This document shows, piece after piece, positions 445 to 42,568 of a stretch of 46,233 nucleotides of DNA. Numbering within the stretch: the stretch's first letter is position 1; every line of letters starts with the position of its first letter. Made by a program: the position numbers and the translations under genes. The notes beneath the pieces were generated by a model that did no database searches, was not told where the DNA came from, and worked only from the letters and a program-made list of their open reading frames with translations. Source of the stretch: Escherichia phage vB_EcoS_ASO78B; the sequence record MZ726796.1; one strand, written 5' to 3'.

Positions 445-547
445 CTGATTTATAATAATTAATGCGGCAAAGGGTAGCTCCCTGCCCGGATTGGTCTCCG
501 GGCTGCCGCATCCAATCAATAGACCGCCTGTAACCGAGGATTCAAGA

Positions 548-1060
548 ATGCCATCATTAAAAGAGCTCGCTCTCACTCAGGAAAGACTTAAGCATCTACT
601 GCATTACAATCCAGATACTGGTGTTTTCACATGGGTTCAGCGCGCCTCAAAAAGCGTAAGAGTTGGTAATTCAGCTGGCAGTAAGAATAAGTCAGGCTAT
701 ATAGATATACGCATCGATAAGTCTTTACACAAAGCTCATCGGCTTGCGTGGCTTTACATTTATGGTGTGTGGCCCAATGGGAAAATAGATCACATCAATA
801 ACGTGAAGACAGATAACAGAATCTGCAACCTGAGAGAAGCAAGTAATAATGAAAACGGATGGAATGTTGGTAAACCATCGACAAATACGTCAGGAGTAAA
901 AGGTGTGAGTTGGGATGCAGAGAAAAATAAATGGAAGGCGCATTGCAGGGTTTTTGGGAAAAAATATACGGTAGGTAGGTTTTCATCACAAGAAGATGCT
1001 GAGAGAGCTGTGGCTGAGTTCAGAAATAAACATCACGGGGAGTTTTGTAATCATGGCTAG
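548..1060 (+). CDS. HNH-AP2 homing endonuclease
   Basis: HNH motif IDHINNVKTDNRICNLREA plus C-terminal AP2-like SGVKGVSW..GRF; GAGGA RBS before ATG 548; stop overlaps TerL start. Confidence 0.8.
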   Translation: MPSLKELALTQERLKHLLHYNPDTGVFTWVQRASKSVRVGNSAGSKNKSGYIDIRIDKSLHKAHRLAWLYIYGVWPNGKIDHINNVKTDNRICNLREASNNENGWNVGKPSTNTSGVKGVSWDAEKNKWKAHCRVFGKKYTVGRFSSQEDAERAVAEFRNKHHGEFCNHG

Positions 1061-3675: not shown

Positions 3676-5088
3676 ATGTCAAAAATTGATGCATTAAACG
3701 CCTACATTCGCGACCGCGTGGCGAACAATAACCGGGCGATTCAGCAACAACGGCTTTGCGCTGGCGGGAAGAATCTCGACCAGAAGCGTGAGTTCATGTG
3801 GAAGGAGCTGGGCTACCCGCAGGAAATCACCGCAGAGATGTTCCGCTATGCCTATGAGCGACATCCAGCCGCCGCTGCTGGTATTAACCGCATTATTAAT
3901 AAATGCTGGCAGAAATACCCTGAAGTGGTAGAGGATGGTGAGGATGATAAGAACTCAACGCAGTGGGAGCTGTCCATCAACGACATGATGAAACGTGCTT
4001 ATCCGTTCATCAAAGAAGCTGACAAGCGCAACGCCATCAACCGCTATTCCGCCGTTATCCTGCAAATCCGCGATGGTAAGCAATGGAGTGAGCCGGTAGA
4101 CATCACCAAAACGCGCCGCATTAAAGATAAATCCATCGTCCGCTTTATTCCGGTGTGGGAAGAGCAACTACGCGTCAGTGCGTGGAATAACGACGAAACC
4201 AGCGAAGACTACGGAATGCCTGAGATGTACGAATATCAGGAAAGCGCCGTGGAAGACTTCGGCAGCGACGGCAAGCCTGAGCGTTCCGTGCAGATTCACC
4301 CTGACCGCATCATCATTCTGGCTGAGGGTAGTTTTGATGGCAGTATGTTCAGTGGCATCCCGATGCTGCGCGCTGGTTACAACAGCCTTATAGACATGGC
4401 TAAGGTTTCCGGTAGCTCCGCAGAAGGCTTCCTGAAGAATGCGAGCCGCCAGCTGGCAGTTAACTACACGAAGGATAACGTAACGCCAGCAAGCCTTGCT
4501 CAGTCAATGGGTGTCGATGTTGAAGAACTCACCGACATCATGAATGAGAACATTGAGGCACTGAATTCAGGCATCGACGCCGCTATGTTCACAATGGGGG
4601 CTGATGCAAAAGTTCTCGCCGTGACTCCAGCCGACCCGAAACCCACATGGGAAGTGGCTGCCAACCAGTTCGCCGCATCAATGGCGCTTCCATTCACCGT
4701 CATTTTCGGGCAGCAAACCGGACGCCTTGCGAGCGACGAAGACAAGATGCAGGAGGCGATGACCGCTAAGCAACGTCGCGAAACATGGGTTGACTATGTC
4801 ATCTCAATGTTCGTTGAGCGCATGATTCAGTTCGGCATCGTCGATAAAGCCCCGGCAAATGGCTACAAGGTTAAGTGGGATGACCTGCTGGCGCCATCAG
4901 AGCTGGATAAAGCGGAGTTGCTGGCTAAACTCGCCACTGCGAATAAGTCATTCTTTGATGCTGGTCAATCTGCGTTGTTGACCGTTGATGAGGCTCGCGG
5001 CATGGTTGGTATGGAGCCGATTGAACTCGACGAAAGCTATCGCGAAGACACACCACCGGAAGATGAAAATGAAGATAATCCGGTTTAA
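3676..5088 (+). CDS. portal protein
   Basis: 470-aa ORF between terminase and MuF-like head morphogenesis gene; size and position typical of siphovirus portal. Confidence 0.7.
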
Positions 5089-6019
5089 TGCCCGCCTTCC
5101 GCAACCGCGCATATCGCAGAGTCTGACAGACCCGTTAGGCGCTGCGACTCGCCTGTCAAAGATGGATAAGGTGATAACGCGCAAATACAAACAACTCAGG
5201 AATCGTGCGCTTGGGTTGTTCCGCACTATTCCGCATAGTCAGACTAACGCAGAATCAAGCGACATGTATTTCTATGATTTCAGTAGTGCGCGGGCAGCCA
5301 CGTTCATGGATGAGTTACAGGCGCTGATTGACGAGATTCTTCTGGAAGGTGATGATTTCGGTCACGGCAGGCTGTGGGCTAACGTGTTCATTGGTGATGC
5401 ATATCAGGCCGGCACACAGAAGGCAAACTCAGAGCTATCAAGCCTGTCTCCTGTTTATGCTGAGCAGAGGCCGATTGCCGCGATACTCTACAGTGAGCCT
5501 TATCTGAACCGGCTCCAGCTGGCTTATACGCAAGGATATTCAGACTGGCGCGGATTGAGTGATTATTCCCGTCAGCAACTGGCATCTGTCATCATGGAAG
5601 GCATTGCTCGTGGCGCAAATCCTCGTAACGTTGAAGCTGACATTGTTAAGCGTGTTGATGTGTCGCACAGCTACGCGAAGCAAATCGCACAGACGGAAAT
5701 TACCGGAACTCTGCGGCAGGCTAACAGGCGAGAAGTCATTGAGGCTCGCGAAGAGTTGGGTATTGAGACGGTGATGCTGTGGCAGTCGGCATTGATGCGT
5801 ACAACCCGTCAGACACACGCGGCAAGACATGGACGGTTTTACACGCCAGAAGAGATTGACACGTTCTATAGTGAGAATGGCAACAGATATAATTGTCACT
5901 GTGCGCAAATTCCAACACTGTTAATGGATGGCAAGCCAGTCATTCTTGAGTCATCACAGGAAAGGCTTGATAAGCAGCGTGAGGCTTGGCAATCGGCAAA
6001 CAAAAAGCCCTCTAAGTGA
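5069..6019 (+). CDS. head morphogenesis protein (Mu F / SPP1 gp7 family)
   Basis: C-terminal [17 protein letters not shown]...NCHC motif as in Phage_Mu_F domain; start overlaps portal 3' end. Confidence 0.75.
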
Positions 6020-17713: not shown

Positions 17714-17954
17714 GATTTATCTTCACCCATCCTTTGCTTGCACCATGCGATACGATAAGTCCTTTCTTGCGCAACGCCTGAAGTCGGCGATCAAGGACTC
17801 GAAATCCCTCATGTGGTTTTGTTGCCAGCTTTTCACACTCTGCATGTATTCCGCTATGAATGCCTCCAGAGAAATGAATAGCCATGAACGTCATCGGCTC
17901 AACATAATCAAGCTCATCCATAATCATTGCGTCGAGTTCTTCATACTTGCTCAT
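17703..17954 (-). CDS. hypothetical protein
   Basis: 83 aa; C-terminal RVLDRRLQALRKKGLI may be a winged-helix DNA-binding element. Confidence 0.45.
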   Translation of the reverse strand: MSKYEELDAMIMDELDYVEPMTFMAIHFSGGIHSGIHAECEKLATKPHEGFRVLDRRLQALRKKGLIVSHGASKGWVKINHER

Positions 17955-18763
17955 CGCATCTTCTCCAGAATTGCCATGACCTCATGAATGTCAGCGACAG
18001 GAATCTGAATAAATTCCTCATCCTCTGCCACCACATGACCAGCAGGTAGAATTACATGGTCGGCTTGCTTCAACAGTTCAATCAGGCGGTCCACTGGCTT
18101 AATCTTCTTTGACTTCAGCACCTTCGCTGTGACCTTATCCTTGCCTTGCGCTTTAGCCTCTTCGACTGCCTCGTTGATAACTTTAACCGCATCATCACCA
18201 TGCTCGCGCGTTACCGCTACGGCGTTTGCATAGCTGATTTGCCCTGCGCTGATGCGAGCCTTCACTTCTGCTGGCACATCACCCAGTGACAGATGCATTT
18301 GCACGTCAGATACTGAACGACCTACCTTCTTGGCGATCTCTTCATTCGTCCAGCCAAAGCCTTTCAGTCTCGTATAAGCCTTCGCGCGCTCAAACGGGTC
18401 AAGTTGCTTTCCCTGACTGGATGAAACCATGAAGGCGATTTTATCTGCTTCGTCTCCGGTAAAATCCTTACACTCAATACGAACTATTGGTGCACCTCGT
18501 TCAATGGCACGCAATGCGCCGAGATAGCGATGCTGACCATCAAGAATGCGGATTCCCTTCTCGTCTGGAATGACTGTTAATGCTGGCAGTGGCTGACCTG
18601 ATTCCCAGCACTGCGCGAAATACTCCACATGCTGCTCATCTGCTTCACGGATGTTGTATCCTGGTTCCAGATAGATTTGCTCAACTGGCACTAGATAGGT
18701 TTTGTTAACAGCGATGCCGTTGCGCGTTTCTTTGTCTGAATAGATTTTGCTTAGTGTTTTCAT
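17951..18763 (-). CDS. ParB-like nuclease domain protein
   Basis: ParB/Srx-type motif IRILDGQHRYLGA in N-terminal half; 270 aa. Confidence 0.7.
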   Translation of the reverse strand: MKTLSKIYSDKETRNGIAVNKTYLVPVEQIYLEPGYNIREADEQHVEYFAQCWESGQPLPALTVIPDEKGIRILDGQHRYLGALRAIERGAPIVRIECKDFTGDEADKIAFMVSSSQGKQLDPFERAKAYTRLKGFGWTNEEIAKKVGRSVSDVQMHLSLGDVPAEVKARISAGQISYANAVAVTREHGDDAVKVINEAVEEAKAQGKDKVTAKVLKSKKIKPVDRLIELLKQADHVILPAGHVVAEDEEFIQIPVADIHEVMAILEKMR

Positions 18764-27486: not shown

Positions 27487-27514
27487 AAAAAAGCCCCTCA
27501 CGGGGCTTTTTTTA
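27485..27514. terminator. bidirectional terminator
   Basis: A8-GCCCC-TCAC-GGGGC-T7 between tape measure stop and the convergent KilA-N gene stop. Confidence 0.75.
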
Positions 27515-28162
27515 AATCTTATCAGCGCATTTACGTACTACCCTCGGTATCGTTTCTTTCAGTTCATCCCATGAGTTGACCGCTTCCATATCCAGAAGCG
27601 TGACAAGAGACTTCTGGATGTCACTGCGTAACTGGTTAGTTTTTGCGTCCTGAGAGTCCCATGTGTCAAATCCGGTAACTTCACGGATATCTATCGACTC
27701 CTTTACTGCCTTTGCCACCTGAATGAAATGACCACTATGACCAATCCTGCCCTCTGTGCGTTCAAGCATTCTGCTGACGGCAGCATTAAGTTCCACGAAG
27801 CTTACCGCACCAATATTTCGCAATTCAACCTGCCTCTGCGTAATGAATCTGTCGATGACGAGGAAATGGAAATATGTGCTGTATTGCTCTGCTATATATA
27901 CAGCCAGATGCAAGCAAGCAAAAGTGGAACCATTTCTACCTCGTGTTGATTTTATTGCGCTATCGATACCAAGCTGCTTTTCGCACTCAGCCTTGAAATC
28001 CTTAAACGCATCAGTTGCCATTACCTGTCGTATTTCTCTCGTCCCCATCCCATTATCCAGTCGCCAGCGATTCATCTGGTTAACAAGCTCATTAACGTTA
28101 ATAAAATTTTCACGGTCGAAAGTGATCTCTCCGTACGGGAACTCTAATGTTTGCAGTTTCAT
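27512..28162 (-). CDS. KilA-N domain protein
   Basis: 216 aa; N-terminal region with INVNEL..W and IKSTRGRNGSTFACLHLAVYIAEQYSTYFHFLVIDRF fits the KilA-N pattern (RGG..GTW.HP.LA...A.WLSP.F.V.V). Confidence 0.5.
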   Translation of the reverse strand: MKLQTLEFPYGEITFDRENFINVNELVNQMNRWRLDNGMGTREIRQVMATDAFKDFKAECEKQLGIDSAIKSTRGRNGSTFACLHLAVYIAEQYSTYFHFLVIDRFITQRQVELRNIGAVSFVELNAAVSRMLERTEGRIGHSGHFIQVAKAVKESIDIREVTGFDTWDSQDAKTNQLRSDIQKSLVTLLDMEAVNSWDELKETIPRVVRKCADKI

Positions 28163-34211: not shown

Positions 34212-34240
34212 AAAAACCCCGCTTCGGCGGGGTTAGTTTT
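34212..34240. terminator. bidirectional terminator
   Basis: A7-CCCCGC-TTCG-GCGGGG-TTAGTTTT between tail fibre and convergent SSB. Confidence 0.75.
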
Positions 34241-34244
34241 ATCA

Positions 34245-34730
34245 TCAGAAGGGTATTGAATCGTCGAAGTCCATTGGAGGCTCATTTCCTCCTTGTGGGC
34301 TTTGTTGTTTTGGTGGCTGTTGTTGTCTTTGCGGTTGCTGGCCTGATTGCTGGCGTGGTTGTTGCTGACCAGAATCATCACGTTTACCGCCAAGCATCTG
34401 CATGACGCCGCCCATCTGTGGAATGACAATCTCAGTGGTATATCGGTCTACGCCGTTGCTGTCAGTCCATTTTCTAGTGCGCAGCTGGCCTTCGATGTAA
34501 ACCTGAGAACCTTTGCGAAGGTATTCTCCTGCAACTTCTGCAAGTTTTCCGAAGATGACCACGCGATGCCATTCAGTCTGCTCTTTCTTTTCTCCTGTCT
34601 GCTTATCTTTCCACTGCTCAGATGTTGCAACTGAAAGATTGGCAATTGCAGAGCCTGATGCTGAATATTTAACTTCCGGGTAGTTACCGAGAGTGCCGAC
34701 AATAATTACTTTGTTTACGCCGCGTGCCAT
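34245..34730 (-). CDS. ssb: single-stranded DNA-binding protein
   Basis: OB-fold N-terminus ([11 protein letters not shown]), Gln/Pro-rich linker and acidic C-terminal tip DFDDSIPF. Confidence 0.9.
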
Positions 34731-34733
34731 TTA

Positions 34734-35393
34734 TTAAAATCCTTCAATTGGAGTTGGTTTATGTTCGGTTTTTTCTTCCTGCGGTTCTGGATGTTGAGGT
34801 TGCGGTTTGGCCAGTTTTGCAGGGTTGAATGATTCGCCTGATACCATGAATTTAGCCTTCATCTCTTGGTAAGCACCAACAATAACGCGAGTTGCTGCAT
34901 CGTCTCCACGGAACGCCTTGTATTCATCGCCATAGATTGAAGCTAACTCTTCCATGCTGGCTGCGTTGCGAATCAATGCGACAGCATCCTTTGGCGATTT
35001 GCGAGCAGCATTACCGTCATCATCAGCCTGAGCAATGCCAAACATTGCTGCGATGGAATATCTTCGCGCATATGTCATTGCCGAGCCGTACCCCTGCGCA
35101 TCCTTCTTAGCAACTGGCATTGGCATCACTGACGACATGTACTCACCGGACTCATGCATTATCGTTGTTTCAAGTTTAAGCACATCCATTGAATCACCAT
35201 CAATGGCATTCTGGATGATTATAAGTCCGTTCGCCTCAAGCGCAGGACGTATTGCATCAAGAAACGACTCAAGGTTTGCGTAGTTGCTTTTCAGGTGTGG
35301 GTTTTTTGCATTTTTCTTTGCTCCGCTACTCATCACCTTTCGAGCTTCAACCAGCGCCTTAATCAGGTTGGCTTTCTGTTCCGAGAAAATCAT
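34734..35393 (-). CDS. ERF-family single-strand annealing protein
   Basis: GSAMTYARRYSIAAMFGIAQADDDG resembles the P22 Erf core (GATSSYARKY..LFGIDDAKD). Confidence 0.7.
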   Translation of the reverse strand: MIFSEQKANLIKALVEARKVMSSGAKKNAKNPHLKSNYANLESFLDAIRPALEANGLIIIQNAIDGDSMDVLKLETTIMHESGEYMSSVMPMPVAKKDAQGYGSAMTYARRYSIAAMFGIAQADDDGNAARKSPKDAVALIRNAASMEELASIYGDEYKAFRGDDAATRVIVGAYQEMKAKFMVSGESFNPAKLAKPQPQHPEPQEEKTEHKPTPIEGF

Positions 35394-35409: not shown

Positions 35410-36348
35410 TTATAAATTAAACTGTTTTTTGAACCACTCAGGCGTTTCCATTTCTATGACAGGATTACCCATTGAATAACCCGGCCACGAATTGGCTTTT
35501 TTGCACGCTTTGTAAATTTCCATTGCACCATGCAACTGAATTCGACCAATATGCAACTGCTCTTCCGTTAATCTAATTAACGCAGGAATAAACGGAGCTT
35601 TCTTTTCCTGAACTAAAAGGTTTACCGAACGCGGTGCATGACCGTATGCCGCAACAAACATATCGTGTTGCATCGCCATTTTCATAAAGTAACCAAGTCG
35701 CGCAGCATGGCGAAAAAACTCATCAGGCTTGGCGCTCACCGCTGTCTTGTAGTCAATGATGTCTCCACCTTTGGTAAGGCAGTCAAAGCGAACTTTTGCT
35801 TTTTCTCCATTAAGCTCACCAAGAATTGACACCTCAGCATAAGCACCAGAAAGAAGACTGCTGTAATAGCTATTTGCGTGGATTACAGCACGCATTTGCT
35901 GAATAGAGTCATAATCACTGCCTTCCAGCATCTGCTTTCCTGCAGCAGCTTTTTCCGCCTCTTCACGGATTACATCGTAAATTTTCACTGGCTCGCCAGT
36001 TGCACGAATGATTTTGATCACATCAGATTTAGACTTTCCTGAAAGTCCTTTAATGCCTCGTTCTTTCGCCCATGAGTTCATGTCACTGACAGTAACTAGC
36101 AGGTCATCACCAAAATCTTCTTTTGTTGGCATACGAGCATATTCAGCATCGAAACGCTCAGGTTCAAGAAGAGCTGTATGGCTACCAGTACCAAAAATGA
36201 GAGCCTTTGATTTCTCATCTTCTTCGTCTTTGTAGCGCCAAGCTGCAGGGCATCTGTCATACAGATTCCACAGACCAGAGCCATTAATATGCTCTGTGTC
36301 GGCGTGGTAATCCTGATTGCTTAATTCATTATTGAAATAGACTTTCAT
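35410..36348 (-). CDS. PD-(D/E)XK family exonuclease
   Basis: 312 aa from ATG 36348; D...DYKT catalytic-type motif (GGDIIDYKT); adjacent to ERF and SSB. Confidence 0.65.
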   Translation of the reverse strand: MKVYFNNELSNQDYHADTEHINGSGLWNLYDRCPAAWRYKDEEDEKSKALIFGTGSHTALLEPERFDAEYARMPTKEDFGDDLLVTVSDMNSWAKERGIKGLSGKSKSDVIKIIRATGEPVKIYDVIREEAEKAAAGKQMLEGSDYDSIQQMRAVIHANSYYSSLLSGAYAEVSILGELNGEKAKVRFDCLTKGGDIIDYKTAVSAKPDEFFRHAARLGYFMKMAMQHDMFVAAYGHAPRSVNLLVQEKKAPFIPALIRLTEEQLHIGRIQLHGAMEIYKACKKANSWPGYSMGNPVIEMETPEWFKKQFNL

Positions 36349-36385
36349 TGTTAACCTCACTCATCATCACGTAAATGAATCTACA

Positions 36386-36862
36386 TCAATCTACATCGGA
36401 AAGCAAGCCAAAATAGAAAAGCGTGGCTTTTTTTAGTTGCTCAAGACCATAAGCGATAGCGGCGTAGTGACCGAGTCTGCACATCTCAGTTAGCACGGCA
36501 TACTGGTCTTTGCTCACTCTGCTCTTACTTTTGTCACGGCGCTTTGCCTCAATCATTCCACAACTGTGCTTCACTCCAGGCGTCATTATCACGTTGTCGC
36601 CTATTCCAGTCTTAACCCCCATCTTCTGGCGTTTCAGTACGAACTGGATGCGGCTGGACGTGCCTGTTTCATTCGGGACGTGAAACCAGAGCACGTCAGG
36701 GAATTGGCTTTGCATCCATGTGCCGTAACCCATCTGTTCAGTCTCCTCTTTCGGGCATTCCCCACGATAACCGCTATCAAATACCCATATACCGCTATCA
36801 AGCTGCTTCACTTTGTTCTCCTGCAAAATCTTTTCTGTGGATGATGTCGCGACCTTTATCAT
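36386..36862 (-). CDS. VRR-NUC domain nuclease
   Basis: GDNVIMTPG...GMIEAKRRD...SKDQYAVL pattern; start uncertain because the 5' end overlaps the helicase. Confidence 0.6.
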   Translation of the reverse strand: MIKVATSSTEKILQENKVKQLDSGIWVFDSGYRGECPKEETEQMGYGTWMQSQFPDVLWFHVPNETGTSSRIQFVLKRQKMGVKTGIGDNVIMTPGVKHSCGMIEAKRRDKSKSRVSKDQYAVLTEMCRLGHYAAIAYGLEQLKKATLFYFGLLSDVD

Positions 36863-38720
36863 TAATGCGGTGCGTGATGCGTTTTGGCGCTTTAATCAAT
36901 GCCGCATACATCATGAATTGCTTGGCGTTTTGGCATTTCAGTATTTTCCCCGCCATTGACTTATCATCAAGGTGAGGAAAGACCGCCTTTGCCTTGAACA
37001 TGTTTTTCATGTGAGTTGCGCCACCATAAGGGTAGAAAACTTCGTTAGCCCAGCCTTCTTTGCCATCACAACGATTAATCCAGTAGCGATACAAAATACC
37101 TTCTCCATCCTTAGTTAACTGGACTTTGAAATCCATAACATCAGCCCACTCATTATCGGTATACGCACGCTCATTAAGTGCCGCATTCGGGTCGCGCAAA
37201 ACATGATCGCAATGTCGGCAATAACGCGCAGTGGGGTCGTTTTTAGTGCCGCAGCCATCATCAAAAATACGGATTCCGTGCTTATCGAAACCGCAACGGA
37301 TGTAACTGAAAAACTCCTCGCAACGACCGTCTGGCGATAATGCATCTTTGCCAATGCAGCGGCGCGCATATGGGCTGTTCATTGTCCCGCACTTCGGACA
37401 CGGAACCTGTTCACCACTGCGTTTTGAACGTTGCGCTTCAGCCTCTTCAAGGATTGGGTCTTCATACAGCTGACCAAGCTCAAACATCGTGCCTGAGAAA
37501 TCAAGAACCAGATGATCTTCTTTATGATACCCGGCATCAATTTGCTCTTTCTTCAGCAAGCGCATCCCGCGACCAAGCAACTGGACAAGGAGAGTTAGCG
37601 ACATTATTTTTCGTAATATGCAGCTCGTATCCCATAGCGGAATGTTGACACCAGTGGTAAGGGCTGCTATCTGGAATGTGAATTTTTTGCGCCCGGTGTA
37701 TGCATCTTTTAGAGCCTTCCTTCTGGCTTTTGGCCCCATATCTTCTGTAACTATTGAATAGCTTCCTTCAGGTAGGTATTTTGCCGCCTCCTGACAGTGC
37801 TTCTTGCCAGCACATGTAATCAATACTCCGTTTCTGTTTTTAGTCAGCTCCATAACCTTTAGCATTATTTTCTGCGTCAGCGTACCTTGTTCAAGGATTT
37901 CTTTCTGCATCTGCTTGAGCTGCTCGGTGGTAAAGTCCTGTGTGCCATCAACATCTGAACCATGAAACTCGGAAAGGTCATAATGCAGACTATCAACATC
38001 ATGAAGACCAAAAATTGTTGGCACAAGAAAGCCGTTTTCAACCATGTACTTGGTGTCTATATTGATAATCTCTTTCTTCCAGAAAGCGCCTTTTATTGAT
38101 GTAGTTCCGCGAAACGGTGAGCCTGTATAACCTATTATTCTCAACTCATGGCCGTGCTTATCTTTGCACCTTTTCATTAGCTCATTAATTATCACTGCAT
38201 ACTGCGTATCACCATCATTAACAACATCAATGTCATTAACCATATGATTTTCATCGATAAGCAGGAATCTTGGGCAAAAGTCAGAAAGCGCACCTTTTGC
38301 AATAACATTCCCTGATTCATCATTTTTATCAAACAAAGCATTTACAACAGTACCCTCAGAACCACAAATTATTGGATACGTAGAACTTTTCCTCCCCAAC
38401 GAAGCGCTGAATAGCGAGTTTCTTACACCAAGCGACCATAGCTCTTCCGCATCTTGCTCCACTATTTCGCCCTGTCTTGATAAAATCATCCCTGAATAGC
38501 CCATTTCCTGAAAACGCTTTGCTATCATGGCAATCATCAGTGACTTTCCGCTACCGACGCTTGCTGTTACATAGCTTGGACCAACATAATGGCGGATCAC
38601 ATCACCAGTTAACTTATATATCAACCACTGATATGGTCTTGGCTCGATATCACCAGTATCCAGATAAGATTTCAGTAGATTAATATCAATCTCTGAAATC
38701 ATCTTGTCTATTTTATGCAT
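36798..38720 (-). CDS. SF2 DNA helicase (DExH box) with C-terminal zinc ribbons
   Basis: Walker A SVGSGKS, LLIDENH DExH box, C-terminal CPKCG...C and CRHC pairs. Confidence 0.8.
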   Translation of the reverse strand: MHKIDKMISEIDINLLKSYLDTGDIEPRPYQWLIYKLTGDVIRHYVGPSYVTASVGSGKSLMIAMIAKRFQEMGYSGMILSRQGEIVEQDAEELWSLGVRNSLFSASLGRKSSTYPIICGSEGTVVNALFDKNDESGNVIAKGALSDFCPRFLLIDENHMVNDIDVVNDGDTQYAVIINELMKRCKDKHGHELRIIGYTGSPFRGTTSIKGAFWKKEIINIDTKYMVENGFLVPTIFGLHDVDSLHYDLSEFHGSDVDGTQDFTTEQLKQMQKEILEQGTLTQKIMLKVMELTKNRNGVLITCAGKKHCQEAAKYLPEGSYSIVTEDMGPKARRKALKDAYTGRKKFTFQIAALTTGVNIPLWDTSCILRKIMSLTLLVQLLGRGMRLLKKEQIDAGYHKEDHLVLDFSGTMFELGQLYEDPILEEAEAQRSKRSGEQVPCPKCGTMNSPYARRCIGKDALSPDGRCEEFFSYIRCGFDKHGIRIFDDGCGTKNDPTARYCRHCDHVLRDPNAALNERAYTDNEWADVMDFKVQLTKDGEGILYRYWINRCDGKEGWANEVFYPYGGATHMKNMFKAKAVFPHLDDKSMAGKILKCQNAKQFMMYAALIKAPKRITHRINDKGRDIIHRKDFAGEQSEAA

Positions 38721-39241
38721 TATTTTACCCTACCAAATTCACCATGATACTTTTTTGATGCTTCCGCATAAACTTTTGCTGCTTCTTCTTTTGTATCATA
38801 TCTGCCGAGCCATATTTTTTTATTATTTACATGTATAGAGCAAGTCCATTTTTTTGTTTGCTTACAAAAACCAACCCCTTTTACACCGGATGTGTTATGG
38901 CTTGGAATCCTCATGTTTCTTAAATTTCCATTAAAGTTTGTTTCTCTTAGGTTTTCTATCCTGTTATTCAATCTATTACCATCTTTATGGTCTATTATTA
39001 ACTCAGGCCAATAACCATGCACTAAAGCCCAAATTATTCTATGAACCTTTATATCAACCCCTAAAAATCCAACCTGAAGATATCCACTTACAGTCTTCGA
39101 ACCTGCAATAGCGCCACGTTTAACCCTGTTTGTTGTTGTTCTTTTCCATATGAGATTTATTCCGTCATATGAAAAATACTCCCGCAGCGTGGATACTGGT
39201 ATTGACTTCTCTTTTAACTTCATCAATTCGAAATCATTCAC
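38720..39241 (-). CDS. HNH-AP2 homing endonuclease (paralog of 548-1060)
   Basis: IDHKDGNRLNNRIENLRE HNH motif and SGVKGVGF..GRY AP2-like region; 1-nt overlap with helicase start. Confidence 0.8.
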   Translation of the reverse strand: MNDFELMKLKEKSIPVSTLREYFSYDGINLIWKRTTTNRVKRGAIAGSKTVSGYLQVGFLGVDIKVHRIIWALVHGYWPELIIDHKDGNRLNNRIENLRETNFNGNLRNMRIPSHNTSGVKGVGFCKQTKKWTCSIHVNNKKIWLGRYDTKEEAAKVYAEASKKYHGEFGRVK

Positions 39242-39303
39242 TTTACGTTACCCTCACTCAGTGTTACGCTTAAAGCATACAAACAGTAACAGATGGAGTC
39301 AAC

Positions 39304-40254
39304 ATGTTTTATTGGGAAGAGATACAACAAAAGATGATTGGAAATTGGGAGGCGGCATTACTGTCAATAGTCAACATAGACAGGAAAATTTTTTCTGGGA
39401 AACATCAACCATGCCCTCATTGCATGGGGGTTGATCGGTTCCGCTGGGATAATCACTTCGAAATCAAAGGCGATGGCGGCGCAATATGCAATCAGTGCGG
39501 GTCAGGTAGCGGCATGAACTGGCTGATGAAACTTTCAGGCATGAACTTCCCTGAAGCACTAGAGGCGCTTGGTGGATTCCTGAATATGCACCCACGCGAA
39601 AAGCTGGAGGCAATCAGGAAGGAGTTGCCGAAGATAAATTACAACGATGACTTCATCACCGAGCAGGAAGTCGCCGCAATCATGTCTAAAACTACGCGTG
39701 TCTCGATGAATGAGTGGACTTTGACAAATGGTATTGGTTGTGACGTTAACGTCGTCAGAGGCAAATCTGGAGAGCTTATTGCGGTTGAGATGGTGCGTGC
39801 TGATACAATGAAGCCGTGCAACGTAGCATTCATTGGCATGGATGGTGATTCATTCAGAACGTTTTTCCGCGCAGGATACAACAAGGACTCAGCCATCAAC
39901 GGCAAACTCACACGCGGCGCGATAAGCACAATCGGAGAAGATAATGGAAAGTTCATTTATCTGGTATCTGATTATGCCGATGCGTGGAAGTGCCATTACT
40001 TCACTGGCGCGCATGTCTGGTGCTGCTGGTATCCTGAAAACATGTGGGAAGTGGTGCGTTCTGTTAGCGATGAGATGAAGGCACGGTTACGCTGCATAGT
40101 TAATTATAAATTTGACGAACTTTGTGCTGCGGAAAATGCAGGACTTCCGGTGATGTTGCCTGATGATGCTGACACTATCAGGATGGCGAAGCGAATCAGA
40201 AGAAAGATTTATGACGCTGGCGAGTTGATAGAAAAAATGTCAGTAAGCAGATAA
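39304..40254 (+). CDS. DNA primase (zinc-ribbon N-terminus)
   Basis: GKHQPCPHCMGVDRFRWDNH...CNQCGSGSGMNWLMK matches the primase zinc-binding ribbon pattern; only + strand gene inside the minus-strand module. Confidence 0.65.
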   Translation: MFYWEEIQQKMIGNWEAALLSIVNIDRKIFSGKHQPCPHCMGVDRFRWDNHFEIKGDGGAICNQCGSGSGMNWLMKLSGMNFPEALEALGGFLNMHPREKLEAIRKELPKINYNDDFITEQEVAAIMSKTTRVSMNEWTLTNGIGCDVNVVRGKSGELIAVEMVRADTMKPCNVAFIGMDGDSFRTFFRAGYNKDSAINGKLTRGAISTIGEDNGKFIYLVSDYADAWKCHYFTGAHVWCCWYPENMWEVVRSVSDEMKARLRCIVNYKFDELCAAENAGLPVMLPDDADTIRMAKRIRRKIYDAGELIEKMSVSR

Positions 40255-40257
40255 AAG

Positions 40258-40283
40258 AAACCCTCCAATAGGAGGGTTTTTGT
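40258..40283. terminator. bidirectional terminator
   Basis: AAACCCTCC-AATA-GGAGGGTTTTT. Confidence 0.7.
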
Positions 40284-40699
40284 TATTCCTTGAACTCTGG
40301 CGCTTCAGTCCAGAAGGCTACATTTCGCAGCGACTTACCCGTGTGATTGCACCAGTATATGCCTGAGTCATCATACTTCGCAGTAACCTTTACGCGATCA
40401 GCATCAATAACAACAACCTCCTGTCCATCTTTAGGGTCGAAAAGACGCGCATCTTTCCAGTTAGCAATCTCATTAAGTGAAAGAATGACATAACCAGGAA
40501 GATAAGAGCCGACATCAGCGATGTGAACTATAGTTCTCTCTGTTCTCTCTCCTGTGTAGTCTCCATTCCACTCATAAAGAATAATCGTGTCTCCAACCTT
40601 AAAATCACGATCGTTCTTTCTTAGTTCCGCCTTCTTGTGTCCGGTGACTACAGGCCAGAAGTGCTCAGGTAAAATTTTAAGTTCGTGTGTTTTGCTCAT
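40283..40699 (-). CDS. DUF3850 / ASCH-like (PUA-fold) domain protein
   Basis: N-terminal HELKILPEHF..V.TG.KKAELRKNDRDFKVGD matches the DUF3850 pattern as recalled; about 60-aa C-terminal extension. Confidence 0.55.
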   Translation of the reverse strand: MSKTHELKILPEHFWPVVTGHKKAELRKNDRDFKVGDTIILYEWNGDYTGERTERTIVHIADVGSYLPGYVILSLNEIANWKDARLFDPKDGQEVVVIDADRVKVTAKYDDSGIYWCNHTGKSLRNVAFWTEAPEFKE

Positions 40700-42276
40700 T
40701 ACAACCCCCTCATAAATCTCATGCGCTTAACGGCAGCAGAAAGATAATTTCTAACAGTTGAGTTCATCCGCAGACCATCCCATGAACCATCACTACACAT
40801 CTTAATTGCTCTTGGATTATCCCTGTCCAGCATTAGTGGTGAATGTTTGTTCTCCTCAATGGCAAGAAGAACTTCATAAACAAATTTATCCGGCGTTAAT
40901 GTGATATTATTCGAGTCAGCAGAATTGATTATCTTTTCAACTCTGTCACGGCACAGCTTGTTCTTTATAACAGACAAATAAGGCGTTTTAATGAATGCCT
41001 GCGATTCACAAATTCGCTTTATTTTTTCAACAATGTTCGACCACTCAGTATTCTCAAGCCCATCAAATGCCTGTTCACCCTCAAGGAATCTTTTCAGCCC
41101 TGCGAGGTGTTCAAGAACCGTGAGATAACCCCACTCGATATGCTCCGTCGTCACTGATGGTGTCATCCCCCGCCGACTTGACAGATCGGTATACGCCGCC
41201 AGAGTTGCAAGATCGACAATCATTAGACCCATACGAGGGATAACATCGCCAACAACACCATCGCAATCACCAAGCTCACTTTCCAGTTTCATAGACAGAT
41301 ATCTGTGCAGTTTTTTCGCATTATCATCAGCCCACACAACGTTAGTTTTCGCGGTAAGAACCCTACCTTTCCACTCATTGATTATTTTTCTTGAAAGCGT
41401 ACCACTCACTTCCACATCCTTCATTGCTGGCATTTCCTCACCAGCAAGATGACCAAGCTGGAACAGCACGCGCCCCATACCGCCATCCTTCTGCCATGAA
41501 CGCGCAGCATCTATTCCCTGCTCTGGCGTGACAGTAATCAGCGGAACAAATTTTGCGTTTTCAATTCCACCGTCTTTTGTTGCAAGTTCGTACTCATTCA
41601 TTGCCGACTTTAGCGCGCGCCCAACGCTGTGGTCCATCATCGCAAGGCGCTTATAATCTATGACTCCTTTCCCATCATCGCCACCAGTAAGTGGCACTAT
41701 CCATCCCTCAGCACTTGCTGCCGCCATGATGCGTTTTGGGTTTTGTTCCCAAGTAAGGTTTTCAAGCAACTCCTTGATTATTGGTCTGTTAGGCACCCAC
41801 ACTCCGCCATCAGTTAGGCCTCTATACCACGCCATCGTACCGCCAAGATATGCATTGCGCGGGTTGTTCCAGTCTTCAAGATGTTGCTTGTCATCGTTCA
41901 CAACGTAGAGCAAAGACCCACCTCCGGCAATCAGGTCTAACTGCATCTGTTTCGTCGATGTTGATTTAGATGCACAAACTCTGGAACCTATTCCCAGCTC
42001 ATTGGCATATGCCCTGACGAAACTCACCGGTGCACCCTTACCTGCACCAGAGCGAGCTACCAGAAATATGCCAGTATTGCAGATACTACCTGTTGGACCA
42101 ATCAAGTATCGTCCAGCCATCGCCTGAGCAAGGCCCAAAGCGCCAGTTAATCGATATCTTTCCCCTCCCTCACGGCGCTCAAACCCCCTTGCGATCTCAT
42201 CCATAAACTCACCAAGTGCCCCGGGAGTCTCCCGATTTATGCCCATAGCCAGAGACTCAAAATCAATCGAACTCAT
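40699..42276 (-). CDS. large hypothetical protein (525 aa)
   Basis: start taken at MSSIDF (ATG 42276) with GGAGGGTG RBS; GAGKG segment is not a canonical Walker A; ATGA-coupled to the DUF3850 gene. Confidence 0.5.
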   Translation of the reverse strand: MSSIDFESLAMGINRETPGALGEFMDEIARGFERREGGERYRLTGALGLAQAMAGRYLIGPTGSICNTGIFLVARSGAGKGAPVSFVRAYANELGIGSRVCASKSTSTKQMQLDLIAGGGSLLYVVNDDKQHLEDWNNPRNAYLGGTMAWYRGLTDGGVWVPNRPIIKELLENLTWEQNPKRIMAAASAEGWIVPLTGGDDGKGVIDYKRLAMMDHSVGRALKSAMNEYELATKDGGIENAKFVPLITVTPEQGIDAARSWQKDGGMGRVLFQLGHLAGEEMPAMKDVEVSGTLSRKIINEWKGRVLTAKTNVVWADDNAKKLHRYLSMKLESELGDCDGVVGDVIPRMGLMIVDLATLAAYTDLSSRRGMTPSVTTEHIEWGYLTVLEHLAGLKRFLEGEQAFDGLENTEWSNIVEKIKRICESQAFIKTPYLSVIKNKLCRDRVEKIINSADSNNITLTPDKFVYEVLLAIEENKHSPLMLDRDNPRAIKMCSDGSWDGLRMNSTVRNYLSAAVKRMRFMRGL

Positions 42277-42568
42277 CAATACACCCTCCATACGCGCAAG
42301 AATTTACCCGGGATAACACCATGTTTCACCGTTAACACAGCACCCACCCTGTCAGCCTCAATTTTTAGCGCTTTCTGAAGTGACGCCACTGTCATCTGAA
42401 AACCTCGCTCTATGTCGTATGCGTAGCACCCATCTCTGCCACCAATCAAAATTGAAGTTGAATACCCGTTCTCAAAGTAAAACTGACACCCATCAGGAAC
42501 GGTAAGATTATTTATCACGTCGTTAGCAAGCGATGTCGTAACAGGGAATATCGGCGCGCAACTCATAC
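42276..42568 (-). CDS. hypothetical protein
   Basis: about 97 aa from MSCAPIF; 1-nt overlap with the 525-aa gene. Confidence 0.4.

What the first reader, a model, noticed from the sequence alone, without database searches (positions are those of the whole stretch)
39242..40285. Primase as an isolated opposite-strand unit inside the replication module
The zinc-ribbon primase is the only + strand gene within the minus-strand module. It is flanked by a paralogous HNH gene and by a bidirectional terminator (40258-40283), suggesting independent regulation or acquisition together with the HNH element.
Basis: seen in the sequence. Interest (0 to 1): 0.35.

Follow-up and report, generated by a model that had tools for sequence, protein, structure and literature searches.

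The report
Inverted primase-like gene beside mobile HNH
A phage primase-like gene sits alone on the opposite strand of its replication module, an arrangement inherited across this phage group and not brought in by the neighbouring mobile HNH endonuclease; the protein also lacks the usual primase catalytic residues.

Summary
ORF 39304-40254 (+) encodes a 316-aa zinc-ribbon protein and is the only + strand gene between SSB (34245) and p82 (42822). An HNH_3-AP2 gene (38720-39241, -) lies upstream. A hairpin at 40256-40281 has T-runs on both strands. A 37%-identical HNH paralogue lies at 491-1060.

All 36 related loci with both genes keep primase divergent from the helicase. The gap between them is empty in 11 distinct loci. 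Elsewhere it holds an 87-aa ORF or one of about six different HNH genes. A 46%-identical relative has the same lone inversion without HNH, and a 38%-identical one is colinear. So the inversion is an old lineage trait.

What moved is a cassette: HNH, the 62-nt control region and roughly the first 100-150 nt of primase. It is 98-100% identical to one metagenomic phage whose adjacent helicase is only 50-67% identical. HNH is 34.7% GC; primase matches the window at 46.5%.

The terminator stem is invariant and its loop variable across relatives, so a separate transcription unit is plausible.

Overall the finding is ordinary.

The parts
39304..40254 (+). Primase-like gene, 316 aa. It has a Cys4 zinc ribbon followed by a DnaG/T7-type RNA-polymerase fold with a TOPRIM-like core. 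It is the only + strand gene in the module.
39397..39516 (+). Zinc-ribbon segment, residues 32-71. C37, C40, C62 and C65 are invariant.
   Evidence: Pfam match. Invariant columns in the 34-sequence alignment.
39946..40173 (+). TOPRIM-like core, about residues 215-290. The canonical acidic triad is substituted: S222 (39967-39969) for Glu, and N267 (40102-40104) and K269 (40108-40110) for the two Asp of DxD.
   Evidence: Strand and helix register from the AF2 model. MAFFT motif table. hmmsearch residue alignments to canonical Toprim_3 proteins. No Pfam Toprim hit at E<=1.
39242..39303 (.). Divergent 62-nt control region. It holds a - strand promoter-like site (TTGACT-17-TATGCT, 39302-39274), the HNH ribosome-binding site (GAGGGT, complement of 39250-39255) and the primase ribosome-binding site (GGAG, 39295-39298).
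   Evidence: Promoter scans. Near-total conservation in window, L022, ZX4 and F14 while the coding flanks vary. Sequence read directly.
38720..39241 (-). Free-standing HNH_3-AP2 homing-endonuclease gene ('type A', 173 aa, GTG start). Its TAA stop overlaps the helicase ATG as TAATG.
   Evidence: Pfam. PHROG 99 at E 1.6e-65. GC 34.7%. Junction seen in the alignment with empty-site phages.
38721..39430 (.). Horizontally transferred HNH cassette with its co-conversion tract: HNH, the control region and the first 100-150 nt of primase. The left edge is sharp at the helicase start codon; the right edge is graded, about 39410-39460.
   Evidence: Window against L022 is 98-100% identical here, 50-67% in the adjacent helicase and about 90% further into primase. 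The segment 38751-39428/39460 is 86-87% identical in Klebsiella phages ZX4 and F14, whose primase is otherwise 62% identical in protein. Alignment with empty-site phages.
40256..40281 (.). Bidirectional intrinsic terminator hairpin between the convergent primase and ASCH stop codons.
   Evidence: Scan on both strands. Folding energies and z-scores. Inverted repeat I1. Stem invariant and loop variable in 33 of 34 relatives.
36798..38720 (-). RadD-like SF2 helicase (640 aa), transcribed divergently from primase. It is the first conserved gene of the downstream - strand unit.
   Evidence: Pfam ResIII and Helicase_C. NCBIfam RadD at E 9e-56. PHROG 16.
40283..40699 (-). ASCH/DUF3850 gene, convergent with primase. 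It is the last gene of the upstream - strand unit and is present in only some relatives.
   Evidence: Pfam. Presence or absence across loci.
40699..42291 (-). p530, a P-loop protein (ARSGAGKG) and probable divergent DUF3987-type helicase. It is a candidate partner of the primase-like protein.
   Evidence: PHROG 3022 at E 6.2e-11, profile positions 358-712 of 788. Pfam DUF3987 only at E 0.26. A 518-aa DUF3987 protein holds the same position in L036. The AF2 model was unusable (pLDDT 45).
491..1060 (+). Paralogous HNH_3-AP2 gene next to the large terminase subunit.
   Evidence: tblastn at 37% identity and E 1e-29. Pfam.
34215..34234 (.). Second bidirectional terminator, closing the - strand module between the tailspike gene (+) and SSB (-).

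Best explanation
The window comes from a small siphophage of the Skatevirus, Akiravirus and Macdonaldcampvirus cluster.

Its primase-like gene is an ancestral single-gene inversion inside a conserved replication and recombination module. On the - strand the gene order is p530, ASCH, [primase inverted], HNH, helicase, p158, exonuclease, ERF, SSB.

The inversion makes the gene a one-gene transcription unit. A short divergent control region shared with the helicase operon lies upstream. A conserved hairpin lies downstream and can terminate transcription from both directions. This probably splits the - strand module into two operons and keeps convergent transcription out of primase (inferred, not shown).

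The adjacent HNH_3-AP2 gene is a free-standing homing endonuclease. It occupies a polymorphic insertion hot-spot exactly between the helicase and primase start codons. It spread horizontally as a cassette that replaced the control region and converted about the first 35-50 codons of primase. The rest of primase is native.

The protein has the zinc ribbon and polymerase fold of T7 gp4 and DnaG primases. It lacks the Glu and DxD metal-binding triad of TOPRIM, so its annotation as an active primase is unproven.
For: Identity of the phage group:
- 151 GenBank phage records match at 80-95% identity.
- The BASEL preprint places the best match, Bas77, in the Skatevirus cluster.

Conserved arrangement:
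- Helicase (-) and primase (+) are divergent in all 36 loci that hold both genes.
- GenBank annotation shows the same layout.

State of the helicase-primase gap:
- 87-90 nt and empty in 11 distinct loci.
- 344 nt with an 87-aa ORF in 3 loci.
- 583-598 nt with type A HNH in 3 loci plus the window.
- 717-749 nt with other HNH_3 alleles, only 35-50% identical to the window's two HNH proteins, in about 9 loci.
- 860 nt with a 257-aa HNH of another family in 2 loci.
- 1163 nt with a 334-aa HNH in 4 loci.

Age of the inversion:
- L036 (46% identical primase) has the same lone inversion and no HNH.
- L037 (38%) has p498, primase and helicase through to SSB all on one strand in the same order.
- L038 (30%) has a three-gene unit inverted.

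Mobility of the cassette:
- Identity profile against L022.
- Match in Klebsiella phages ZX4 and F14.
- Precise left junction at the helicase ATG.
- GC content of 34.7% for HNH against 46.5% for primase.

Terminator.

Control region and promoters.

Fold.

Degenerate triad:
-.
- The Toprim triad is defined as a glutamate plus DxD that bind divalent metal (PMC5517523).
Against: No transcript data exist, so the promoters and bidirectional termination are consensus predictions only.

In this window no + strand promoter reaches 9 of 12 consensus matches. How primase is transcribed here is therefore open.

The - strand T-tract of the hairpin (CTTTTATC) is weaker than the + strand one, so termination may be leaky in that direction.

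The HNH cleavage site is unknown. The co-conversion pattern could also come from ordinary homologous recombination between co-infecting phages.

The direction of the ancestral rearrangement (inversion in this lineage, or reversion in L037) rests on three distant genomes.
Confidence: 0.75

Rival explanations
1. Primase and HNH were acquired together as one mobile unit inserted in reverse orientation into a - strand module.
For: - HNH is adjacent to primase, and the first 100-150 nt of primase co-vary with the HNH type.
- The unit is bounded by a terminator, and recombination breakpoints fall right after it.
Against: - The arrangement is present without HNH in 11 distinct loci, and with unrelated inserts in others.
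- It is also present at 46% primase identity without HNH.
- Primase GC content equals the genome average while HNH is 12 points lower.
- Outside its 5' end, primase is 86-91% identical to that of phages with empty sites.
Confidence: 0.05
2. The gene encodes a non-catalytic primase-like protein. The zinc ribbon and fold are kept for binding DNA or a partner, for example loading or tethering the DUF3987-type helicase p530 or the host replisome. RNA primers would come from host DnaG.
For: - The TOPRIM Glu and both Asp of DxD are replaced by S222, N267 and K269.
- Only 3 of 26 family representatives keep the Glu, whereas all 29 canonical relatives keep both EG and DxD.
- No acidic residue is invariant in the C-terminal domain.
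- No Pfam Toprim model matches at E<=1, although one does in relative P0159.
- The second-best structural match is Twinkle. In animals Twinkle has only helicase activity because of sequence changes in its primase domain (PMC3610141, abstract).
- The ORF list at >=90 aa shows no ORF of polymerase size beyond the tail genes and helicases (inference), so the phage probably depends on host replication enzymes anyway.
Against: - The gene is strictly conserved, and its zinc ribbon is invariant.
- Several acidic residues lie near the expected site and could form an alternative metal site: D223, D226, D271, E272, E277 and D287-D290.
- Model coordinates could not be inspected.
- No biochemistry exists for any family member.
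Confidence: 0.45
3. The hairpin is only the primase terminator. The - strand module is one long operon that reads through it, giving antisense RNA across primase that dampens its expression.
For: - The - strand tail is interrupted (CTTTTATC) and the - strand fold is weaker, at z -3.36.
- Empty-site relatives lack a scan-quality - strand promoter in the 87-nt gap.
Against: - - strand promoter-like sites sit immediately upstream of HNH in the window (39302-39274) and in swi2.
- An analogous two-way hairpin closes the module at 34215-34234.
Confidence: 0.2

Closest known systems
T7 gp4 primase fragment and bacterial DnaG (zinc-binding domain plus RNA-polymerase domain with TOPRIM)
   Same: - Cys4 zinc ribbon of the primase-helicase type (PF08273).
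   Different: - No fused helicase.
- No sequence-level match to any solved primase.
- The Glu and DxD metal triad is substituted by S222, N267 and K269.
Toprim_3-type primase-helicases of phages, plasmids and satellites (the P4 alpha 'EGYATA' group is recalled from my own knowledge; Toprim_3 fused to DUF3987 or AAA_25)
   Same: - Significant profile homology of the C-terminal domain. The library-wide profile search gave E of about 7e-9 to 1e-3 for the canonical long proteins. Re-scoring against the fetched set gave domain E of 1e-15 to 4e-11.
- Distant zinc-ribbon relatives P0093-P0099 carry DUF7146 plus Toprim_3.
- A DUF3987-type protein is encoded nearby.
   Different: - Here the two halves are separate genes on opposite strands.
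- The EG and DxD motifs that every fused relative keeps are lost.
N-terminal primase-like domain of metazoan Twinkle
   Different: From my own knowledge, Twinkle lost the zinc-finger cysteines and stays fused to its helicase. Here the zinc ribbon is intact and the protein stands alone. Loss of activity is untested.
Free-standing phage homing endonucleases (T-even seg/mob genes and HNH-AP2 endonucleases; 'intronless homing', from my own knowledge)
   Same: - Intergenic insertion between conserved essential genes.
- Presence/absence and allele polymorphism at one site.
- Low GC content.
- Sharp junction on one side and a graded co-conversion tract on the other.
   Different: - The cleavage site and nuclease activity are unknown.
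- The insertion also replaces a divergent promoter region.
Bidirectional intrinsic terminators between convergent genes
   Same: GC-rich stem flanked by an A-tract and a T-tract, placed between two stop codons 28 nt apart.
   Different: Nothing notable. Function is not measured.

Membership tests
DnaG/T7 gp4-type (TOPRIM) primase | N-terminal Cys4 zinc-binding domain | tested here: met
   PF08273 at E 1.2e-9, residues 32-71. C37, C40, C62 and C65 are invariant in 34 sequences.
DnaG/T7 gp4-type (TOPRIM) primase | RNA-polymerase domain fold (N-terminal subdomain plus TOPRIM) | tested here: met
DnaG/T7 gp4-type (TOPRIM) primase | Match to a Toprim sequence profile | tested here: not met
   No Pfam Toprim, Toprim_2, Toprim_3 or Toprim_4 hit at E<=1, whereas relative P0159 scores 2.7e-11. 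No NCBIfam hit.
DnaG/T7 gp4-type (TOPRIM) primase | Conserved Glu after strand 1 and DxD after strand 3, the metal-binding triad (PMC5517523) | tested here: not met
   S222, N267 and K269 occupy these positions in the MAFFT and hmmsearch alignments and in the AF2 strand register. The register rests on alignment; model coordinates were not inspected.
DnaG/T7 gp4-type (TOPRIM) primase | Template-directed oligoribonucleotide synthesis | not testable with these tools
   Needs biochemistry.
Free-standing HNH homing endonuclease | HNH nuclease domain plus a DNA-binding module | tested here: met
   HNH_3 at E 1.5e-15 and AP2 at E 4.3e-9. PHROG 99 at E 1.6e-65.
Free-standing HNH homing endonuclease | Presence/absence polymorphism at a fixed site in otherwise syntenic genomes | tested here: met
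   The gap is 87-90 nt in 11 distinct loci and occupied in the others. The junction lies at the helicase ATG.
Free-standing HNH homing endonuclease | Horizontal spread with co-conversion of flanking sequence | tested here: met
   The cassette is 98-100% identical to L022 against 50-67% in the adjacent helicase. It is 86-87% identical in Klebsiella phages whose primase is 62% identical.
Free-standing HNH homing endonuclease | Cleavage of the endonuclease-free allele near the insertion site | not testable with these tools
   Needs an in vitro cleavage assay or mixed infections.
Bidirectional intrinsic terminator | Stable GC-rich hairpin followed by a T-run on both strands, between convergent genes | tested here: met
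   Conserved in 33 of 34 relatives.
Bidirectional intrinsic terminator | Transcript 3' ends at the hairpin in vivo | not testable with these tools
   Needs Term-seq or 3' RACE.
Split Toprim_3-DUF3987 primase-helicase | Partner gene homologous to the DUF3987 helicase half | tested here: inconclusive
   - p530 matches PHROG 3022 at E 6e-11 over positions 358-712.
- Pfam DUF3987 scores only E 0.26.
- There is no tblastn similarity to the DUF3987 proteins at the same position in L036 and ZX4.
- The AF2 model failed.

The most novel reading that the evidence does not exclude
The 'DNA primase' of this whole phage cluster, annotated as such in over 100 GenBank genomes, may be a pseudo-primase. It would be a stand-alone zinc-ribbon plus DnaG-fold protein that has lost the TOPRIM Glu and DxD triad. 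Its role would be as a DNA- or helicase-binding adaptor in a replisome that borrows host DnaG. That would make it a bacterial-virus parallel to the inactive primase domain of animal Twinkle.
Probability: 0.4. Interest if true: 0.5.

Novelty: new member of a known kind. Interest (0 to 1): 0.27.

Why it matters
As stated, the finding describes synteny that is conserved and already annotated in a well-sampled phage cluster. The HNH polymorphism beside it is of a familiar kind, so it changes little.

Two by-products have some value.
- The helicase-primase junction is a clean natural example of a homing-endonuclease hot-spot. It has at least seven occupancy states, and the insert swaps a divergent promoter region and the 5' end of an essential gene. 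That makes it useful for studying how such elements rewire regulation and create mosaicism.
- The catalytic triad is missing from a protein routinely labelled 'DNA primase'. This is a caution for annotation. If confirmed, it would show how small siphophages without their own polymerase assemble a replisome.

Tried and rejected
- Searches of the primase against solved structures, by single sequence and by profile, gave no primase hit beyond a marginal zinc-domain match. Fold comparison was needed instead.
- The profile-profile comparison of the family's C-terminal domain with six canonical zinc-ribbon/Toprim_3 relatives was weak (E 0.028, probability 1.8%). It gave the same register as later, stronger searches. 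The library-wide profile search and local hmmsearch alignments settled homology and register.
- The first MAFFT alignment misplaced the DxD region of the canonical sequences. I did not rely on it for that motif.
- I looked for inverted repeats flanking primase that could mark a recent inversion. Only the terminator and two 12-nt chance pairs turned up.
- I looked for a + strand sigma70 promoter upstream of primase in the window. Nothing better than 8 of 12 matches appeared, and those lay inside HNH coding sequence.
- The structure prediction for p530 was unusable: pLDDT 45 with only 7 sequences. No fold search was run on it.
- phmmer of p530 against the fetched primase-helicases and against solved structures gave nothing.
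- Literature searches found no description of this locus. They returned only general remarks on homing endonucleases and mosaicism in related phages.
- I considered and rejected the idea that primase is compositionally foreign.
Full report
**What is there**

The window is a roughly 46-kb siphophage genome. The 2.2 kb around the finding matches 151 GenBank phage records at 80-95% identity. The best matches are Escherichia phages Bas77 and ZCEC08 and Salmonella phages Akira, DS8 and Vi II-E1. The BASEL preprint places Bas77-81 in a cluster formed mainly by genus Skatevirus (10.1101/2024.09.12.612763).

Between 34245 and 42822 every convincing gene but one is on the - strand:
- SSB (34245-34730)
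- ERF annealing protein (34734-35393)
- DUF3799/exonuclease VIII (35410-36360)
- p158 (36386-36862)
- RadD-like SF2 helicase (36798-38720)
- HNH_3-AP2 endonuclease (38720-39241)
- ASCH/DUF3850 (40283-40699)
- p530, a P-loop protein (40699-42291)
- p109 and p82 (to 42822)

The exception is ORF 39304-40254 (+), 316 aa. It matches PF08273 Zn_Ribbon_Prim at E 1.2e-9 and PHROG 510 'DNA primase' at E 5.6e-73.

**The terminator**

A hairpin at 40256-40281 fills the 28 nt between the convergent primase and ASCH stop codons. The scanner calls it on both strands. It folds at -19.1 kcal/mol (z -4.95) on the + strand and -16.1 kcal/mol (z -3.36) on the - strand.

In 33 of 34 related loci the stem AAACCCTCC/GGAGGGTTT and the TTTTTGTTA tail are unchanged, while the 4-nt loop varies freely (AATA, ATAT, AATC, GACT, GATT, ATCT, TGCC, TGAT). 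Sequence downstream of the tail switches between at least five unrelated continuations. The hairpin is therefore a conserved element and also a recombination boundary.

A similar two-way hairpin closes the module at 34215-34234.

**The HNH gene and its paralogue**

ORF 38720-39241 (-) carries HNH_3 (E 1.5e-15) and AP2 (E 4.3e-9). Its stop codon overlaps the helicase start as TAATG.

The window holds one paralogue, at 491-1060 (+), beside the large terminase subunit. It is 37% identical with E 1e-29 and has the same two domains.

**Comparative test of the interpretation**

I collected 40 related loci from GenBank, IMG/VR and metagenome assemblies. In every one of the 36 that hold both helicase and primase, the two genes are divergent.

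The gap between them takes at least seven states:
- 87-90 nt and empty in 11 distinct loci, including Bas77, Akira and L036
- 344 nt with an 87-aa ORF in 3 loci
- 583-598 nt with the window's 'type A' HNH in L022 and Klebsiella phages ZX4 and F14
- 717-749 nt with other HNH_3 alleles, only 35-50% identical to the window's two HNH proteins, in about 9 loci
- 860 nt with a 257-aa HNH of a different family in 2 loci
- 1163 nt with a 334-aa HNH in 4 loci, including Vi II-E1

More distant relatives date the arrangement:
- L036 (primase 46% identical) has the same lone inverted gene and no HNH. A Pfam-recognised DUF3987 protein sits where p530 sits.
- L037 (38%) has p498, primase, helicase, p149, then the exonuclease and SSB, all on one strand. 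This is the same order as in the window read on its - strand.
- L038 (30%) has a three-gene unit (p181, primase, p661) inverted.

The single-gene inversion is thus a trait of this lineage. It is older than, and independent of, any HNH insertion.

Composition agrees. Primase is 46.5% GC, the window 46.6% and HNH 34.7%.

**What did move**

Against L022, the only metagenomic phage with the same HNH (99% protein identity), nucleotide identity runs as follows:

| Window segment | Identity to L022 |
|---|---|
| About 38700-39400 | 98-100% |
| Adjacent helicase 5' part (38100-38700) | 50-67% |
| Primase beyond about 39450 | about 90% |
| Primase 3' end | below 70% |

The same segment (38751-39428/39460) is 86-87% identical in ZX4 and F14. 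Their primase is otherwise only 62% identical in protein.

Alignment with empty-site phages puts the left junction exactly at the helicase start codon. It also shows that the intergenic region and about the first 100-150 nt of primase are a diverged allele. Bas77 rejoins the window's sequence at about 39410. The N-terminal roughly 53 residues of primase fall into discrete alleles that reassort among phages.

This is the pattern expected of a free-standing homing endonuclease spreading with co-conversion of its flanks. The cleavage step itself is inferred.

**Regulation**

The 62-nt region 39242-39303 has one variable position among window, L022, ZX4 and F14, while both coding flanks accumulate changes. 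This implies regulatory constraint.

It contains a - strand promoter-like site (TTGACT-17-TATGCT, 39302-39274). It also contains ribosome-binding sites for both genes.

Empty-site phages have a + strand TTGATG-18-TATACT upstream of primase. Phages with the commoner HNH alleles have back-to-back TTGATT-17-TACAAT (+) and TTGCAA-16-TACAAT (-). Each HNH cassette therefore brings its own control region.

In the window no + strand site reaches 9 of 12 matches, so how primase is transcribed here is unresolved.

The most economical reading has three units:
- Upstream - strand operon: p82 through ASCH, ending at the hairpin.
- Downstream - strand operon: HNH through SSB, starting in the control region and ending at 34215-34234.
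- Primase: a one-gene + strand unit between the two.

All of this is inferred.

**Is it a primase?**

The fold is therefore met, but the chemistry is not. No Pfam Toprim model matches at E<=1.

A profile of the family's C-terminal domain finds 114 representatives in 1.8 billion proteins. These include many 560-1142-aa primase-helicases carrying Toprim_3 fused to DUF3987 or AAA_25.

In MAFFT and hmmsearch alignments, all 29 canonical relatives show (I/L/V)xxxEG(Y/F/W/I)(A/S)(T/D)(A/G) and (A/G)DxD. The window shows IYLV-S222-D223-Y-A-D226-A and CIV-N267-Y-K269-FDE.

The AF2 strand register agrees. Strand 218-221 precedes S222, and strand 262-265 precedes N267.

Only 3 of 26 family representatives keep the Glu. 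No acidic residue is invariant in the domain. The four zinc cysteines are invariant.

The Toprim triad is defined as this Glu plus DxD binding divalent metal (PMC5517523). Animal Twinkle, with the same fold, lost primase activity through sequence changes in this domain (PMC3610141).

Nearby acidic residues could rebuild a metal site: D223, D226, D271, E272, E277 and D287-290. I could not inspect coordinates. I therefore rate loss of activity at about 0.4-0.45.

**Partner**

p530 has a Walker A motif (ARSGAGKG) and matches PHROG 3022 'DNA primase' over profile positions 358-712 at E 6e-11. That stretch corresponds roughly to the span the DUF3987 domain occupies in the fused relative P0159 (residues 354-721).

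The other evidence is weak:
- Pfam DUF3987 scores only E 0.26.
- p530 is unrelated at tblastn level to the DUF3987 proteins at the same position in L036 and ZX4.
- Its AF2 model failed.

A 'split primase-helicase' reading is therefore plausible but unproven.

**Verdict**

The independent-unit idea is reasonable. The co-acquisition idea fails for the gene and holds only for its 5' end.

All components belong to known kinds and the arrangement is already annotated in many genomes, so interest is low. The missing catalytic triad is the one point worth an experiment.

Noticed in passing
L011 about 4428-5398 (also L023 and L030); equivalent to window helicase residues about 165-170, near 38210: In three relatives the RadD-like helicase carries an insertion of about 970 nt in helicase motif II. 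The sequence reads ...LMDE|CLTGDALIL...VAHN|CHQM..., the signature of an intein with an embedded endonuclease. The window's helicase (FLLIDENHMV) lacks it.
   Followed up: partly
window 491-1060 (+), overlapping the start of the large terminase subunit at 996-2477: A second HNH_3-AP2 gene sits immediately upstream of, and overlaps, the large terminase gene. Near-identical copies (96-99%) occur in L014, L032 and L035, so it may be another mobile endonuclease at a classic site.
   Followed up: partly
window 34215-34234: A second bidirectional terminator hairpin (AACCCCGC-TTCG-GCGGGGTT) lies between the tailspike gene (+) and SSB (-). It folds at z -3.8 and -4.3 on the two strands.
   Followed up: yes
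L008 2964-3737 (-) and L032 (860-nt gap): A 257-aa protein with a C-terminal HNH motif (HIVPINSKLVCGLHCWHNLQLL) occupies the same helicase-primase site. It shows no similarity to the HNH_3-AP2 genes, so it is a third endonuclease family at one hot-spot.
   Followed up: partly
L006 5656-5919 (-), L024 and L029 (344-nt gap): An 87-aa ORF of unknown function fills the helicase-primase site in three relatives. It has no HNH similarity.
   Followed up: no
L003 about 4745-4800 and the equivalent in about 16 other loci: The control region upstream of primase in phages with the commoner HNH alleles holds a tandem direct repeat, GTAACGATTAATTGTTTCAT / GTAACGATTGATTGTTTCAT. It overlaps the back-to-back promoters and could be an operator.
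   Followed up: no
window 40283-42291, compared with L002, L004, L036 and L039: Genes downstream of the terminator are mosaic. ASCH is present in only some relatives. p530 is replaced in Akira, Vi II-E1, ZX4 and L036 by a 517-518-aa protein, annotated 'DNA helicase' in the GenBank records and carrying a DUF3987 hit in L036, that has no tblastn similarity to p530.
   Followed up: partly
L009 (Salmonella phage SB28) 6920-7010: This phage's primase has a different C-terminal tail (…LLSKIEFNAQN). A different terminator hairpin (GGCTACA-AGTG-TGTAGCC, then TTTTTAATTT) replaces the conserved one.
   Followed up: no
window 27512-28162 (-) and 17951-18763 (-): Two further opposite-strand genes lie inside the + strand structural region. 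One is a weak KilA-N match (E 2.4e-4, below the Pfam cutoff). The other is a ParB-HTH/KorB-like protein (E 2.2e-11).
   Followed up: no
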